Source of the DNA: an uncultured Acidimicrobiia bacterium
GTDB lineage: Bacteria; Actinomycetota; Acidimicrobiia; IMCC26256; JAENVU01
Reading direction: 5' to 3'
Length of the DNA: 64,000 bases
Assembly: GCA_963820025.1 (NCBI GenBank)
Contig: CAWFYL010000007.1
Span: 798,693 to 862,692 of the forward strand
Under the pieces are notes generated by a model, which was not told the origin of the DNA, did not search any database, and saw only the letters and a program-made list of their open reading frames with translations. Shown one piece after another: positions 14,963 through 34,068 of this stretch (its first letter is position 1; every line of letters begins with the position of its first letter). The position numbers and the translations under genes were made by a program.

Positions 14963-15780
14963 TGCTGCGGCTCATCCGCACCGAGCTGACCAAGCAGGTG
15001 CTGCGGCCACGGACGTGGGTCGCGCTCGGCTTCCTCGTGATCGTGCCCGTCATCATCGCGGTCGCCCTGAAGCTGAACCCGCCGGACCTCTCGGGCGACG
15101 GGCAGGGTCCGCGGTACTTCTACCTGGCCACCCAGAGCGGGCTCTTCCTGCCCGTGGCCGCGCTCCGGGTCATGAGCGGCTTCTTCCTGGTCGTCGTGAT
15201 CTGCATGTTCGCCGGCGACGCGGTCGCGAGCGAGGCGGGCTGGGGCAACCTGCGCTACCTGCTGATGCGGCCCGTCGGCCGGGGACGGCTGCTCACCGCC
15301 AAGCTCTTCGTCGCCGCAGTGTTCGCCGTCCTCGCGACGGCCCTCGTCGCGCTCTCCGGGCTGGTCGCCGGGGTCATCGCGTTCGGCTGGCACTCGATCA
15401 CGATCCCGTTCATCGGGCTGTCGCAGTCGCCGAGCGAGATCCTCGGCCACCTCGGCCTGGCCACGCTCCTCATCACCTGGGGGCTCGCCGGGATCATCGC
15501 CTTCGCGTTCATGCTCTCGACGATGACGGACTCCGCCGCGGGCGCGATCTTCGGCGCGGTCGGGCTCTACATCGTCTCGTTGATCCTCAACGAGATCACC
15601 TCGCTCGGCTCGATCCGCTACGGACTGCCGGTCCACTACTACGACTCGTGGTGCGACCTGTTCGTCCGCAACACCTTCACCGACGACATGTGGCGCAGCG
15701 TGCTGTTGCAGATCCCGTACGTCATCGTGTTCTGCGCCATCGCGTGGTGGTGGTTCCACCGCAAAGACATCAAGTCGTAG
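14962..15780 (+). CDS. ABC-2 type transporter permease
   Basis: In-frame ATG at 14962 inside ORF 14275..15780. Six hydrophobic segments. Translationally coupled to the ATPase through an ATGA overlap. Confidence 0.8.
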   Translation: MLRLIRTELTKQVLRPRTWVALGFLVIVPVIIAVALKLNPPDLSGDGQGPRYFYLATQSGLFLPVAALRVMSGFFLVVVICMFAGDAVASEAGWGNLRYLLMRPVGRGRLLTAKLFVAAVFAVLATALVALSGLVAGVIAFGWHSITIPFIGLSQSPSEILGHLGLATLLITWGLAGIIAFAFMLSTMTDSAAGAIFGAVGLYIVSLILNEITSLGSIRYGLPVHYYDSWCDLFVRNTFTDDMWRSVLLQIPYVIVFCAIAWWWFHRKDIKS

Positions 15781-15784
15781 TTGC

Positions 15785-16075
15785 TCTGAGCGACCCTGGC
15801 GGGTTGTTGCGGCGGGCGGGAAGCATCGGCACGAACCTGCCCTGCGCCACGCGCGGTTGCGGTCGCTCAGGTGACTCGGGTGGTGCCCGAGCCCCGAGGG
15901 TCAGTCGGGTGGCGGGAAGCATCGGCACGAACCTGCCCTGCGCCACGCGTGGTTGCGGTCGCTCAGGTGACTCGGGTGGTGCCCGAGCCCCGAGGGTCAG
16001 TCGGGTGGCGGGAAGCATCGGCACGAACCTGCCCTGCGCCACGCGCGGTTGCGGTCGCTCAGGTGACTCGGGATC
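15785..16075 (+). repeat. repeat family A, locus 1: tandem 96-bp unit x about 2.7 copies
   Basis: Units start at 15816, 15912 and 16008 (GCGGGAAGCATCGGCACGAACCTGCCCTGCGCCACGCGCGGTTGCGGTCGCTCAGGTGACTCGGGTGGTGCCCGAG...). The copies differ by one substitution. CTGAGCGACC at 15787-15796 is the inverse of GGTCGCTCAG within the unit. Confidence 0.9.
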
Positions 16076-16536
16076 GGACCCGGCCTGCGCTCAACTCTGG
16101 GGCGGGCGGCGAGGTAGGCCTTGACCATGGTGGCGAACTCGCCGACGTTGTAGATGTCCTCTTCGTAGGACCACTGGTCGTCGCCCGCGTACTTCAGCAG
16201 CGACCAGTTGATCGCCTGGTGCTGCCGGCCGTCGCCGATGTCCTGCATACGGTTCCAGACCGCGCACACGACCCAGCCGCGATCCTCGTCGATCACCCAC
16301 CAGTCGGCCGGGAACTCCGTCATCTCGTGGTTCGGGTACTCGGCCATCGTCGTGCTGATCCACCGCCGGATCGCCTCGCGGCCGCGGAACGTCCCGTAGA
16401 GGTGCTCGACGTACTCGGCGTCCTCGGTGAAGAGGTCGGCCCACGCGTCCCACTGGCCGGACGCGCCGGCTTCGGCCGCGGTGGCCCGGTAGTGCGCGTA
16501 CGCCCGCTCGATCTCGTCCCGCGTGAATTTCCCCAT
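15997..16536 (-). CDS. SnoaL-like / NTF2-fold protein; C-terminal ~25 codons and the stop lie inside repeat A
   Basis: MGKFTRDEIERAYAHYRATAAEAG...WWVIDEDRGWVVCAVWNRM is typical of the SnoaL_2/NTF2 superfamily. ATG at 16536 is preceded by GGGAAGAGG, which is contributed by repeat B. Confidence 0.75.
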   Translation of the reverse strand: MGKFTRDEIERAYAHYRATAAEAGASGQWDAWADLFTEDAEYVEHLYGTFRGREAIRRWISTTMAEYPNHEMTEFPADWWVIDEDRGWVVCAVWNRMQDIGDGRQHQAINWSLLKYAGDDQWSYEEDIYNVGEFATMVKAYLAARPRVERRPGPIPSHLSDRNRAWRRAGSCRCFPPPD

Positions 16537-16547
16537 GAGGACACCTC

Positions 16548-16731
16548 TTCCCAAGATCTCCGGAGGGCGATCACCCGGGCACGGTTCGGCTCGGTGCCCT
16601 CCGGCGGCTTTTTCCCAAGATCTCCGGAGGGCGATCACCCGGGCACGGTTCGGCTCGGTGCCCTCCGGCGGCTTTTTCCCAAGATCTCCGGAGGGCGATC
16701 ACCCGGCACGGTTCGGCACGGCGCCCTCCGG
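16548..16731 (-). repeat. repeat family B, locus 1: 64-bp BIME-like unit x 3
   Basis: TTCCCAAGATCT occurs at 16548, 16612 and 16676. Arms CCGGAGGGC and GCCCTCCGG alternate (16560, 16596, 16624, 16660, 16688, 16723). Confidence 0.9.
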
Positions 16732-16754
16732 TGGCTCGAACGTGTACGTGAACC

Positions 16755-17589
16755 CTAGCGACGGAACGCGGCGCGGCCGTCGAGCGTACGGACCTCGCGG
16801 CCGAGCTCCTCGAGCACCTCGGCGCTCGTGGCGCGCCGCCCGGTCATGCGGGCCGGATCCACGCTGCACAACGCGAGGGCGGCCTCGGCCATCTGCTCGA
16901 TCGGCTCGACGTGGCCCGGCTCGTCGGGCATGAGCCCCATCGCGATCACCCCCGGGGTCGCGACCGCCGCACACCGGTGCGACCGCGTTGACCGCGACGC
17001 CGCCCGCGAACACCTCGGCCGCGAGCCCCGTCGTCAGTCGCTCGAGCGCGGCCTTGCTCGTGCCGTAGAGCGTGGCGCCGTTGTCCGCGTGAAAGGGGGT
17101 GAACGGCGGGCCCTCGGGATGGGCCGACACGCCGGAGGAGATGTTGACGATCGCGCCGCGCCCGCGTTGCAGCATGCCGGGGAGGACGGCCCGGCTCAGG
17201 TCCCAGGGCGCATGGACGTTCACCTCGAACATCACCGCGTACCGGCGAGGGCTCACCCGATCCCAGGGCAGGTAGAAGCACGCGGCCGCGTTGTTCACCA
17301 GGACGTCGACGGCGCCGAGCGCGCCGCGTGCGTCCTCGATGATCGCGGCCCGGTCCACTGCGGGGTCCGACAGGTCGGCGACGACGATGTGGGCCCGGCC
17401 GCCGTCGGCCTCGATCCGGTCCGCGGTCTCCCGGAGCGACCCCGGGTTCGCGTCGGCGTCGGGCTCGGCGGTCCGGCCGACGAGCGCGACCGCGGCACCC
17501 GCGGCGGCGAGGCGCCGGGCGATGGCCGCGCCGATCCCACGGCTCGCCCCGGTGACGACCGCGGTGCGCCCGTCCAGCTCCTCGGTCAT
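16755..17589 (-). pseudogene. SDR family oxidoreductase; single frameshift near 16950-16975
   Basis: MTEELDGRTAVVTGASRGIGAAIA...NNAA...YGTSKAAL lies in ORF 16699..18168. The C-terminal IAMGLMPDEPGHVEPIEQMAEAALALC lies in ORF 16755..16949. Length is 3n+1. Confidence 0.8.
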
Positions 17590-32840: not shown

Positions 32841-32889
32841 GCTTCGGCGTCGTGTACCCACCACCGAAGGGGGTAGCTGACGCCAAAGC
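32841..32889 (+). repeat. repeat family C hairpin, copy 1
   Basis: GCTTCGGCGTC...GACGCCAAAGC: 11-bp stem with one C.A mismatch, starting 14 nt after the ABC-F stop. Homologous to 56341-56389. Confidence 0.6.
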
Positions 32890-32898
32890 AGAGAACCG

Positions 32899-33024
32899 CC
32901 GGAGGCCGCCAGTCGATCGCGGTCCGGCGATCGGCCTCCGGAGATCTTGGGAAGAAGGGCCGCCGGAGGCGCGCCAGTTGGTTGCGGTCCGGTGGTCGCG
33001 CTCCGGGGAACCTCAGGAAGGAGG
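32899..33024 (+). repeat. repeat family B, locus 2: one good plus one degenerate unit
   Basis: CCGGAGGCC (32899), GGCCTCCGG (32933), AGATCTTGGGAAG (32942), CCGGAGGC (32963). The second unit is degenerate (GCTCCGGGGAACCTCAGGAAGG). Confidence 0.8.
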
Positions 33025-34068
33025 TGTGTCGCCGTTCTGGGTGATGGCGGCGGGGGTGGGGAGCTTCTCGCCGATCTCGAGCGGGAAGTGGCAGGCCACG
33101 AAGTGGTCGGGCCGCACCGCACGGATCTCGGGCTCCTGCTGCGCGCACACGTCCCGGGCCTTGGGGCAGCGGGTGCGGAAGCGGCAGCCGCTCGGCGGCG
33201 CGACGGGCGACGGGATCTCGCCCCGCACCCCGGCGCGGTCGGCCGGCTTGATCGACGGGTCCGGGATCGGGATCGCCGAGAGCAGCGCCGCGGTGTAGGG
33301 GTGCGCGGGTGCCTCGTACAGCTCGTCGGGGCCGGACACCTCGCAGATCTTGCCGAGGTACATGACCGCGACCCGGTCGCTCACGTTCTTGACCACCGCG
33401 AGGTCGTGCGCGATGAAGATCAGCGTGAGCCCGTAGCGGGCCTTCATGTCCTGGAGCAGGTTCAGGATCTGCGCCTGCACCGACACGTCGAGCGCGGACA
33501 CGGGTTCGTCGCAGATGATGAGCTTCGGGTCCGTCGCGACCGCGCGCGCGATCGAGATGCGCTGGCACTGGCCGCCGGAGAATTCATGGGGTCGCTTCGG
33601 TCCCGCGGTGTCCGGGTCGATGCCGACGGTCTCGAGCACCTCGCGGACCTTCGCCTCGCGGGTCGCGTCGTCGCCGATCTTCCAGATGTCGAGGCCCTCG
33701 CTCACGATCTTGCGGATCTTGCGGCGCGGGTTCAGCGACGAGATCGGGTCCTGGAAGATCATCTGCAGCTTCGGCCGGGTCTGGCGCAGCGCCTCGCCGT
33801 GCAGCGCGGTGAGGTCCTTGCCGTCGAACTGCACCTGGCCGCTCGTCGGGTGCACGAGCTGCATGACCGCGCGGCCCGTCGTGCTCTTGCCGCAGCCGGA
33901 CTCGCCGACGAGACCGAGGGTCTCGCCGTCCTTGACGTCGAGGCTGACCTTCGAGACCGCGTTGACCTTCAGTCCCGCGCGACCGATGGGGAACTCGACG
34001 ACGAGGTCCTCGATCCGCAGCAGGGTCTCGTCGGCCGGGCGCAGGTGGGCGGTGCCGCTGCCGGCCAC
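33013..34068 (-). CDS. peptide (Opp/Dpp-type) ABC transporter ATP-binding protein, OppF/DppF-like
   Basis: GESGCGKST, LSGGQCQRISIARA and a C-terminal oligopeptide_C extension (PSGCRFRTRCP). Confidence 0.9.
   Translation of the reverse strand: MAGSGTAHLRPADETLLRIEDLVVEFPIGRAGLKVNAVSKVSLDVKDGETLGLVGESGCGKSTTGRAVMQLVHPTSGQVQFDGKDLTALHGEALRQTRPKLQMIFQDPISSLNPRRKIRKIVSEGLDIWKIGDDATREAKVREVLETVGIDPDTAGPKRPHEFSGGQCQRISIARAVATDPKLIICDEPVSALDVSVQAQILNLLQDMKARYGLTLIFIAHDLAVVKNVSDRVAVMYLGKICEVSGPDELYEAPAHPYTAALLSAIPIPDPSIKPADRAGVRGEIPSPVAPPSGCRFRTRCPKARDVCAQQEPEIRAVRPDHFVACHFPLEIGEKLPTPAAITQNGDTPPS

What the first reader, a model, noticed from the sequence alone, without database searches (positions are those of the whole stretch)
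16548..16731. Repeat family B, locus 1: BIME-like mosaic (two inverted arms, two alternating linkers) x3 that donates the SnoaL Shine-Dalgarno
The 64-bp unit is arm CCGGAGGGC, a 27-nt linker (gatcacccgggcacggttcggctcggt), the inverted arm GCCCTCCGG, and a 19-nt linker containing TTCCCAAGATCT. The same architecture occurs at 32899-33024 and 59282-59461 with arms CCGGAGGCC/GGCCTCCGG and CCGGCGGCC/GGCCGCCGG. Two arm positions differ between loci, and both are changed compensatorily in the partner arm. The linker motif AGATCTTSGGAA is conserved. Conserved pairing with covariation argues for selection on a DNA or RNA hairpin, as in enterobacterial REP/BIME elements. The copy next to the SnoaL gene reads ...GGAGATCTTGGGAAGAGGtgtcctcATG on the coding strand, so the repeat provides the ribosome-binding site.
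Basis: seen in the sequence. Interest (0 to 1): 0.6.

Follow-up and report, generated by a model that had tools for sequence, protein, structure and literature searches.

The report
Mobile hairpin repeat family in Acidimicrobiia
The three 64-base repeats are copies of a previously undescribed small mobile hairpin element of soil Acidimicrobiia that lands at the very edges of genes and multiplies head-to-tail; it resembles the REP elements of E. coli but is not one, and it does not supply the ribosome-binding site of the neighbouring gene.

Summary
Window 16548-16734 holds three head-to-tail 64-nt units, and the same family sits at 32896-33019 and 59279-59458. Each unit is CCG, then a 43-45-nt hairpin with a 10-bp basal stem (CCGGAGGGCG/CGCCCTCCGG), then the tag AGATCTTSGGAA.

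I found 55 copies (50 distinct), all in Acidimicrobiia or on unnamed soil-metagenome contigs. The stem is 94% paired, and 5 of its 10 pairs show compensatory double changes.

Orthologous loci in relatives show that the arrays are insertions:
- The SDR-SnoaL spacer is 31-33 nt and empty in three relatives.
- Other sites are filled in relatives and empty in the window.
- One spacer carries independent insertions in opposite orientations.
- One copy is an exact 60-nt in-frame insertion in a gene.

No target duplication is visible. The tag end abuts a gene edge: within 7 nt of a convergent gene's stop codon in 14 of 25 arrays, or just upstream of a Shine-Dalgarno sequence.

The Shine-Dalgarno core GAGG at SnoaL is native flank, not donated by the repeat. 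The architecture is not BIME-like, because the two "arms" are one stem and the units are direct repeats. There is no GTAG/CGTC tag, no Rfam hit and no U-tract.

Best reading: a new REP/MITE-like non-autonomous element whose mobilising enzyme is unknown.

The parts
16548..16734 (-). Family B array, locus 1: three head-to-tail units (16676-16734, 16612-16671, 16548-16607 in reading order on the minus strand) joined by AAAG linkers. It is an insertion between the SDR stop codon and the SnoaL ribosome-binding site.
   Evidence: TRF period 64, score 350. Covariance-model hits of 61.5-64.5 bits. The orthologous spacers in L023, L024 and L025 are empty.
16735..16754 (-). Native 20-nt spacer left between the SDR stop codon (TAG, 16755-16757) and the 5' end of the array.
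   Evidence: It aligns with GGTGCACCGACGCCGGACGAG in the empty sites of the relatives.
16537..16547 (-). Native flank GAGGTGTCCTC carrying the Shine-Dalgarno core of SnoaL (ATG at 16534-16536). It is not part of the repeat unit.
   Evidence: Empty-site relatives have GAGGGGGA / GGGGGGAG at the same place. Internal unit junctions differ from this flank.
32896..32953 (+). Family B, locus 2: the intact unit, with stem CCGGAGGCCG/CGGCCTCCGG.
   Evidence: Covariance-model hit of 78.7 bits. Absent from the orthologous spacers L150 and L151.
32960..33019 (+). Family B, locus 2: the degenerate second unit. Its decayed tag overlaps the stop codon (33013-33015) of the convergent oligopeptide-transporter ATPase gene.
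   Evidence: Covariance-model hit of 45.7 bits. ORF 33013-34068 on the minus strand. The C-terminus NGDTPPS* is native.
32842..32888 (.). Native bidirectional terminator-like hairpin (CTTCGGCGTC...GACGCCAAAG), retained beside the inserted B units. It is not part of the family.
   Evidence: It is orthologous to TTTGGCGTC...GACGCCAAAG in the element-free locus L151.
59279..59458 (+). Family B array, locus 3: three identical 58-nt units plus GGG linkers (period 61). It fills the whole gap between the convergent acyl-CoA dehydrogenase and GNAT genes. The GNAT reading frame runs 15 codons into it.
   Evidence: TRF 100% matches. Covariance-model hits of 72.2 bits. There is an orthologous 3-unit array in L026, and a native terminator instead in L027/L028. 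GNAT is 203 aa here against 190 aa in homologues.

Best explanation
Family B is a non-autonomous mobile palindromic element in the REP/MITE sense, specific to a clade of Acidimicrobiia.

**Shown**
- One unit is CCG + hairpin + the 12-nt tag AGATCTTSGGAA. The hairpin has a 10-bp basal stem, an internal loop and a short distal helix.
- Whole units appear and disappear at orthologous sites. They end precisely at CCGCCGG and at GGAA, with no terminal inverted repeats beyond the stem and no visible target duplication.
- The tag end lies against a gene edge.
- Once inserted, a unit is amplified locally head-to-tail and the copies are homogenised.
- The stem is kept by compensatory change.

**Inferred**
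- The hairpin plus tag is recognised as single-stranded DNA by a strand-specific nuclease or transposase, as in REP-RAYT and IS200/IS605. This would explain the asymmetry, the lack of duplication and the need for an intact stem. No such enzyme has been identified here.
- When transcribed, the hairpin sits 12 nt after a stop codon. There it probably acts as a 3'-end barrier or stabiliser rather than as a canonical terminator.
For: **Restricted dispersed family**
- A scan of 185,579 species genomes gave 18 true loci in 7 MAGs, all Acidimicrobiia.
- A single 8-kb locus holds up to 3 separate sites (L014: 2585-2642, 4448-4503, 6695-6885), and the 64-kb window holds 3 arrays.

**Insertions and empty sites**
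- Locus 1 is a clean 187-nt insertion in a 31-33-nt spacer.
- Locus 2 is absent from L150 and L151.
- Locus 3 is replaced by a native hairpin in L027.
- L023 and L024 carry units that the window and L025 lack. These include insertions in opposite orientations in the same spacer and an exact 60-nt in-frame insertion after codon 6 of a histidine-phosphatase gene.

**Structure**
- Stem 94% paired, 5 of 10 pairs with double changes, 29 double-change cells against 5.9 in shuffles.
- Most copies fold with a distal helix.
- Between the orthologous arrays of the window and L026, the stems are 20/20 identical, while 4-fold synonymous sites in the neighbouring gene are 79% identical.

**Polarity**
- In 14 of 25 arrays the tag end is within -7 to +7 nt of the stop codon of an opposite-strand ORF.
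- Where a same-strand ORF end could be called, the other end lies 0-176 nt from it.
- In co-directional contexts the tag end sits 11-16 nt before the start codon (window locus 1, L013, L017 sdhA-sdhB).

**Local amplification and homogenisation**
- Units are 96-100% identical within arrays but about 80% identical between orthologous arrays.
Against: - No transposase was found or could be searched for genome-wide.
- No conserved target sequence or cleavage-site tetranucleotide is evident at four insertion junctions.
- Within-array identity fits replication slippage as well as local re-insertion.
- Gene calls in the MAG loci are my own GC3-based heuristic, so the distance statistics are approximate.
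- RNA folding energy shows no strand preference (27 versus 19 copies, p = 0.25). G-U-compatible mismatches favour the gene-sense strand only weakly (10 versus 3). DNA-level and RNA-level selection therefore cannot be separated.
- The ascertainment patterns fixed parts of the stem and tag.
Confidence: 0.6

Rival explanations
1. It is a host-selected, sequence-specific transcription terminator or 3'-end processing signal, analogous to the mycobacterial TRIT motif. A dedicated factor would recognise it, and it would spread because it is useful rather than because it is mobile.
For: - It has a narrow position at stop codons, as reported for TRIT (PMC3152330).
- It replaces a classical bidirectional terminator hairpin at the GNAT/acyl-CoA dehydrogenase junction.
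- The stems are more conserved than synonymous sites between orthologous arrays.
- The tag together with the 3' arm forms a 16-bp near-palindrome, TCCGGAGATCTTCGGA, which could be a protein site (read from the sequence).
Against: - There is no U-tract, and the terminator scan finds none in 15500-17500.
- The 6 nt after the hairpin in gene sense are only 30% T.
- Arrays sit inside operon-like co-directional pairs where termination would be harmful: SDR-SnoaL, and sdhA-sdhB in L017.
- One copy is an in-frame insertion in coding sequence.
- At locus 2 the native terminator hairpin is retained beside it.
- TRIT predictions themselves overlap poorly with mapped 3' ends in M. tuberculosis (10.1101/2022.06.01.494293).
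Confidence: 0.2
2. It is a genuine REP/BIME system mobilised by a RAYT (REP-associated tyrosine transposase).
For: - It is a palindromic unit with an unpaired conserved tag at one end, extragenic, placed near gene ends.
- Copies occasionally supply stop codons, occasionally lie inside genes, and are reiterated in tandem. All of these behaviours are described for REPs (PMC3733652).
Against: - The tag is neither GTAG nor CGTC.
- Units are head-to-tail, not the inverted pairs of BIMEs or REPINs. Only L011 shows an inverted juxtaposition.
- The hairpin is longer (43-45 nt) than typical REPs.
- The GTAG/CGTC survey never mentions Actinobacteria (0 occurrences).
- No RAYT has been seen, but it was not searchable.
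Confidence: 0.12
3. It is only a local minisatellite (VNTR) produced by replication slippage, with no dispersal mechanism and no function.
For: Units are near-identical within arrays, and the periods of 61 and 64 nt are not multiples of three.
Against: - The same unit occurs at more than 35 unrelated loci in at least 7 species-level MAGs plus the window's genome and three further assemblies of relatives, often as a single copy.
- Insertions are clean relative to empty orthologous sites.
- The stem shows compensatory variation.
Confidence: 0.03
4. It is a classical DDE-transposase MITE in which the two stem arms are the terminal inverted repeats.
For: There is a 10-bp inverted repeat near both ends and a short internal region.
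Against: - The conserved sequence extends asymmetrically: 3 nt on one side and 12 nt on the other.
- No target-site duplication is seen at four insertion junctions.
- The stem arms vary by compensated changes, which is not expected for transposase-binding terminal repeats.
Confidence: 0.05

Closest known systems
REP elements (GTAG/CGTC-tagged repetitive extragenic palindromes) and their BIME/REPIN arrangements, with RAYT transposases
   Same: - A short dispersed palindromic unit with a conserved unpaired tag at one end.
- It lies between convergent or co-directional genes, close to or overlapping stop codons.
- Occasional copies lie inside genes, and units cluster in tandem.
- Its presence or absence varies among relatives.
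   Different: - The tag is a 12-nt AGATCTTSGGAA, not GTAG or CGTC.
- The hairpin is longer and two-tiered.
- Arrays are strictly head-to-tail rather than inverted pairs.
- The host is Acidimicrobiia, and no RAYT has been identified.
TRIT (Tuberculosis Rho-independent terminator motif) of Mycobacterium (Gardner et al. 2011, PMC3152330)
   Same: - An actinobacterial hairpin conserved in both sequence and structure, present in many copies.
- A very narrow position relative to stop codons, no canonical U-tract, and palindromic.
   Different: - TRIT is reported only in Mycobacterium. Sequence relatedness could not be tested because no model is available.
- TRIT is not described as forming tandem arrays or as insertion-polymorphic.
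- Family B also sits upstream of start codons and inside a coding sequence.
MIRU / mycobacterial intergenic VNTR loci
   Same: Units of 46-100 nt are repeated head-to-tail at many intergenic loci of an actinobacterium. They often lie within operons and touch the flanking stop and start codons (my own knowledge of Supply et al. 1997/2000).
   Different: - The main arrays have periods of 61 and 64 nt, not multiples of three, so they do not encode coupling mini-ORFs.
- Family B is defined by a covarying hairpin.
- No sequence similarity was tested.
IS200/IS605-derived palindrome-associated elements (single-strand 'peel and paste' transposition)
   Same: An asymmetric element with a hairpin near its end, no terminal inverted repeats and no target duplication.
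   Different: No conserved 4-5-nt target or cleavage sequence is seen next to the element, and no TnpA has been found. The resemblance is mechanistic inference only.

Membership tests
REP (GTAG/CGTC superfamilies) | Short imperfect palindrome able to form a stem-loop, in many dispersed extragenic copies | tested here: met
   - 10-bp basal stem, 94% paired across 50 distinct copies.
- 3 arrays in the 64-kb window and up to 3 sites in one 8-kb locus.
- The hairpin (43-45 nt) is longer than the usual 20-40 bp.
REP (GTAG/CGTC superfamilies) | Unpaired GTAG or CGTC tetranucleotide at one end of the palindrome (PMC3733652) | tested here: not met
   The flanks are CCG on one side and AGATCTTSGGAA on the other in all copies. 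There is no GTAG or CGTC in the consensus.
REP (GTAG/CGTC superfamilies) | A RAYT (Y1 transposase) gene in the genome, flanked by the repeats | not testable with these tools
   - The source contig (1,442,664 bp) could not be retrieved.
- Genes between the inverted units in L014 read by eye, from their ORF translations, as a lactate/malate dehydrogenase and an FKBP-type isomerase (no family search was run).
BIME | REPs in alternating (inverted) orientation separated by a small set of linker motifs | tested here: not met
All units in every array have the same orientation.
TRIT-like conserved terminator | Conserved sequence-plus-structure hairpin with a narrow position at stop codons | tested here: met
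   14 of 25 arrays have the tag end within +/-7 nt of an opposite-strand stop codon. Gene calls are heuristic.
TRIT-like conserved terminator | Homology to the TRIT covariance model, or termination activity | not testable with these tools
   There is no TRIT family in Rfam. There is no Rfam match at gathering score or at E <= 10 beyond noise.
Canonical intrinsic terminator | G+C-rich hairpin immediately followed by a U-tract | tested here: not met
   The terminator scan finds 0 sites in 15500-17500. The sequence after the stem is CGG plus pyrimidines (30% T) on one strand and AGATCTT on the other.
MIRU-type intergenic VNTR | Tandem 40-100-nt units at multiple intergenic loci | tested here: met
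   Periods of 64, 61 and 63 nt, 2-3 copies, at many loci.
MIRU-type intergenic VNTR | Units carry small ORFs in frame with, and overlapping, the flanking genes | tested here: not met
   Periods 64 and 61 are not multiples of 3. Only the L017 array (63 nt) and the L023 insertion (60 nt) are in frame.
DDE-type MITE | Terminal inverted repeats at the outer ends and a target-site duplication | tested here: not met
   The conserved ends are asymmetric, and no duplication is seen at four insertion/empty-site comparisons.
IS200/IS605-type single-strand element | Sub-terminal hairpin, no target duplication, insertion 3' of a fixed 4-5-nt target | tested here: inconclusive
   The hairpin and the lack of duplication fit. 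The flanks show only a purine bias (74% purines in the 6 nt before CCGCCGG) and no fixed target.

The most novel reading that the evidence does not exclude
Family B may be a gene-edge-seeking element. In this reading, a hairpin-plus-tag module is inserted in a fixed polarity directly after stop codons, or directly before ribosome-binding sites, by an enzyme that is not a RAYT. Alternatively it may be a factor-recognised 3'-end signal whose 16-bp near-palindrome TCCGGAGATCTTCGGA is the binding site. Either way, Acidimicrobiia would have a dedicated system that rewrites gene 3' ends, replacing native terminators and sometimes extending proteins.
Probability: 0.15. Interest if true: 0.65.

Novelty: new variant of a known kind. 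Interest (0 to 1): 0.4.

Why it matters
- Small palindromic repeats are well studied in Proteobacteria but hardly at all in Actinomycetota outside Mycobacterium. My two searches found no description for Acidimicrobiia, an abundant and mostly uncultured soil and water class.
- This family shows, with orthologous filled and empty sites, that such elements remodel gene ends:
  - They replace or sit beside native terminators.
  - They remove stop codons. GNAT gains 13 residues here, and sdhA in L017 has no stop until 1143.
  - One copy inserts 20 codons in frame into a gene.
- The elements also break short-read assemblies. Contig L149 ends exactly at such a site.
- The covariance model built here gives a practical marker for annotating these MAGs.
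- The strict polarity at stop codons offers a handle on the unresolved question of what conserved non-U-tract hairpins do in high-G+C bacteria.

Tried and rejected
- **Rfam.** A search of the whole window at gathering score gave nothing. A search of 16480-16800 at E <= 10 gave only noise (Pab160, MEG3).
- **Plasmids and viruses.** A distant blastn against plasmids found no match. The viral-contig scan found 0.
- **Metagenome scan.** Of the 80 loci listed, only 8 were true elements. The rest match only the 18-mer and lack the hairpin. The window's own chance match at 62734 lies in an aldehyde-dehydrogenase 'EEIFGP' coding motif.
- **Source contig.** Two exact-protein look-ups failed to retrieve it.
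- **Which strand is selected.** Folding both strands of all copies showed no asymmetry. G-U counts are only suggestive.
- **Terminator scan.** Negative.
- **Transposase between inverted units in L014.** The ORFs there read by eye as housekeeping genes.
- **A second conserved native terminator family (TTTGGCGYC).** Not significant in the window.
- **Literature.** Searches for Acidimicrobiia plus REP found nothing, and a RAYT/Actinobacteria search returned only noise.
- **Self-targeting idea.** I considered that the hairpin-less unit in L013 (CCGCCGG-AGATCTTCGGAA) is an empty target for a nested insertion. A deletion between the two CCGG direct repeats is more parsimonious, so I left this unresolved.
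- **Stop codons.** I considered whether the element carries its own antisense stop codon (GGAA-TYA). This is seen in about 7 arrays but not in the others, so it is not a fixed part of the element.

Full report
**1. The observation**

Window 16548-16736 is a tandem repeat of period 64, with 3.0 copies, 96% matches and score 350. The same family occurs at two other places:
- 32896-33019, with one intact unit and one decayed unit.
- 59279-59458, with three identical units of period 61.

The motif AGATCTTSGGAA with up to 1 mismatch occurs 8 times against 0.13 expected. One of these hits, at 62734, is a chance match inside a coding 'EEIFGP' motif.

Read on the strand that carries AGATCTTSGGAA, a unit has three parts:
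- CCG.
- A hairpin running from CCGG to CCGG, 43-45 nt long.
- The 12-nt tag.

The arms differ among the three loci at two positions, and both differences are compensated in the partner arm.

**2. A wider sample**

I scanned one genome per species (185,579 species) for CCGCCGG-N30-45-CCGGAGATCTTSGGAA. This returned 22 loci. Eighteen of them, from seven MAGs, are all labelled Acidimicrobiia. The other four lack the hairpin and are chance matches.

A covariance model built from 24 distinct units (R1) found further, more diverged copies in the same loci, in syntenic loci of relatives, and in 8 of the 80 metagenome contigs that matched the bare 18-mer.

The full set is 55 copies, 50 of them distinct. 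On this set:
- The 10-bp basal stem is 94.2% paired, against 40-50% when the partner column is slid by 1-3 positions.
- Five of 10 pairs change on both sides.
- There are 29 double-change cells against 5.9 +/- 2.1 in shuffles.

Most copies also fold a short distal helix, such as CCGGACC/GGTCCGG.

The search patterns fixed part of the stem and tag, so only the inner stem positions and the model-found diverged copies are free tests. Those do covary: CCGCCGGCC/GGCCGGCGG in L014 and L017, and CCCGAGGG/CCCTCGGG in L011.

Nothing matches in Rfam, plasmids or viral contigs.

**3. The arrays are insertions**

*Locus 1.* SnoaL homologues of 81-83% identity lie in the same gene order (histidine phosphatase, a 150-aa gene, SDR, SnoaL, ABC-2 permease) in L023, L024 and L025. 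In those loci the SDR stop and the SnoaL ATG are 31-33 nt apart and there is no element. The window's 218-nt gap breaks down as:
- 20 native nt.
- A 187-nt array that begins exactly at CCACCGG and ends exactly at GGGAA.
- 11 native nt, GAGGTGTCCTC.

The relatives have GAGGGGGA / GGGGGGAG at the same distance from the ATG. The Shine-Dalgarno core is therefore native, and the repeat does not donate it.

*Locus 2.* L150 (91% identical ATPase) has a 14-nt gap. L151 (86%) has only a native hairpin, TTTGGCGTC...GACGCCAAAG. In the window the two B units lie between the ATPase stop codon and that same native hairpin, which is retained at 32842-32888.

*Locus 3.* L026 (GNAT 86% identical) has an orthologous three-unit array. 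L027 and L028 (76%) instead have a classical bidirectional terminator-like hairpin in a 70-nt gap.

*The converse.* L023 and L024 carry units that the window and L025 lack:
- One sits in the spacer downstream of the histidine-phosphatase gene, in opposite orientations and at different positions in the two genomes.
- One is an exact 60-nt, 20-codon in-frame insertion after codon 6 of that gene.

No target-site duplication and no fixed target sequence appears at these junctions. The 6 nt before CCGCCGG are merely purine-rich, at 74%.

**4. Polarity**

I used a GC3-based ORF filter of my own, so these figures are approximate.
- In 14 of 25 arrays the tag end lies within -7 to +7 nt of the stop codon of an opposite-strand ORF.
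- Where a same-strand ORF end could be called, the CCGCCGG end lies 0-176 nt from it.
- I saw no case in which only the CCGCCGG end abuts a stop codon.

In gene sense the layout is: stop codon, TTCCSAAGATCT, hairpin, CGG, then pyrimidines.

Several copies have CGA mutated to TGA within the tag, so that the element supplies the stop codon (L026, L009, L011). In the window's locus 3 this has not happened, and the GNAT ORF is 203 aa against 190 aa in homologues.

In co-directional contexts the tag end sits 11-16 nt before the next start codon. The cases are window locus 1, L013, and the sdhA-sdhB array in L017. That array has a 63-nt period and leaves sdhA without a stop codon until position 1143.

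**5. After insertion**

Units are 96-100% identical within an array but about 80% identical between the orthologous arrays of the window and L026. This points to local amplification with homogenisation.

Between those orthologues the stems are 20/20 identical. The loop is about two-thirds identical, and 4-fold synonymous sites in the adjacent gene are 79% identical. This is mild evidence for constraint in place (0.79^20 is about 0.01).

RNA folding energy does not favour either strand (27 versus 19 copies, p = 0.25). Wobble-compatible mismatches favour the gene-sense strand only weakly (10 versus 3). Whether selection acts on DNA or on RNA therefore stays open.

**6. Mechanism**

*Shown:* the unit is a discrete insertable module with an asymmetric tag, no duplication of the target, a stem kept by compensation, a polar position at gene edges, and local tandem amplification.

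*Inferred:* the hairpin plus tag is recognised as single-stranded DNA by a strand-specific enzyme, as in REP-RAYT or IS200/IS605. The transcribed hairpin then acts as a 3' barrier.

It is unlikely to be a canonical terminator, for four reasons:
- It has no U-tract.
- It sits inside operon-like gene pairs.
- It coexists with a native terminator hairpin.
- One copy is translated.

The mycobacterial precedent, TRIT, is also narrowly placed at stop codons (PMC3152330). It overlaps poorly with mapped 3' ends (10.1101/2022.06.01.494293).

**7. Comparison with known families**

The behaviour matches what is described for REPs: they lie near or overlap stop codons, sometimes sit inside genes, and are reiterated in tandem (PMC3733652). 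Three things separate family B from them:
- The defining GTAG or CGTC tag is absent.
- The BIME or REPIN inverted-pair architecture is absent.
- No RAYT could be looked for.

Family B resembles MIRU loci in being tandem and intergenic in an actinobacterium, but it does not have their in-frame mini-ORFs. It is best filed as a new family of tagged palindromic repeats: a new variant of a known kind.

**8. Source**

Two window proteins are 100% identical to database proteins recorded on a 1,442,664-bp contig (P0121, P0241). The nearest named relatives are all Acidimicrobiia MAGs. The contig itself could not be retrieved.

Noticed in passing
window 15815-16072 and 60962-61254: A second, unrelated dispersed tandem-repeat family ('family A', units of 96 and 92 nt, 2.7 and 3.2 copies). 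The two loci share a core of about 55 nt ending in GTGCCGATGCTTCCCGC. At 15815-16072 it is also an insertion: relatives have only 3 nt between the convergent SnoaL and ABC-2 stop codons.
   Followed up: partly
window 15997-16536 (minus strand): The SnoaL ORF is 179 aa, against about 150 aa in homologues. Its native stop codon is gone and the last ~30 residues are encoded by the family A repeat.
   Followed up: partly
window ~16950-16970 (SDR gene, 16755-17589, minus strand): The SDR gene upstream of the array changes reading frame near here, judged against the 277-aa orthologue of L024. Two tblastn segments, in frames -3 and -1, overlap at residues 208-213. This is either a pseudogene or a homopolymer error in a long-read assembly.
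   Followed up: partly
window 59414-60025 (minus strand): The GNAT acetyltransferase ORF lacks its native stop codon and reads 15 codons into the family B array (203 aa against 190 aa). In the orthologue L026 a CGA-to-TGA change in the tag restores the stop at the native position.
   Followed up: yes
L017 720-1143: A three-unit family B array of period 63 lies between sdhA and sdhB, in frame with sdhA. As assembled, sdhA has no stop codon until position 1143 and its ORF overlaps the sdhB start.
   Followed up: partly
L023 2543-2602 and L024 2546-2605: An exact 60-nt family B unit is inserted in frame after codon 6 of a histidine-phosphatase gene, adding 20 residues (230 aa against about 210). 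No alternative start codon is visible downstream.
   Followed up: partly
L149 (contig JBTDJN010000139.1), end of locus: This short-read contig ends exactly at the 3' end of the oligopeptide-transporter ATPase gene, the site where the window carries family B units. This suggests that these repeats break assemblies.
   Followed up: no
window 62734-62745 and most metagenome hits (L029-L108): The tag sequence GGAGATCTTCGGA also arises by chance in coding DNA. The window's own chance match at 62734 lies in the aldehyde-dehydrogenase 'EEIFGP' motif. Motif-only searches for this family are therefore dominated by false positives: 72 of the 80 metagenome loci listed lack the hairpin.
   Followed up: yes
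L013 2395-2413: A 'hairpin-less' unit, CCGCCGG-AGATCTTCGGAA, lies directly upstream of a full unit. It is either a deletion between the two CCGG direct repeats or an unoccupied form of the site.
   Followed up: no
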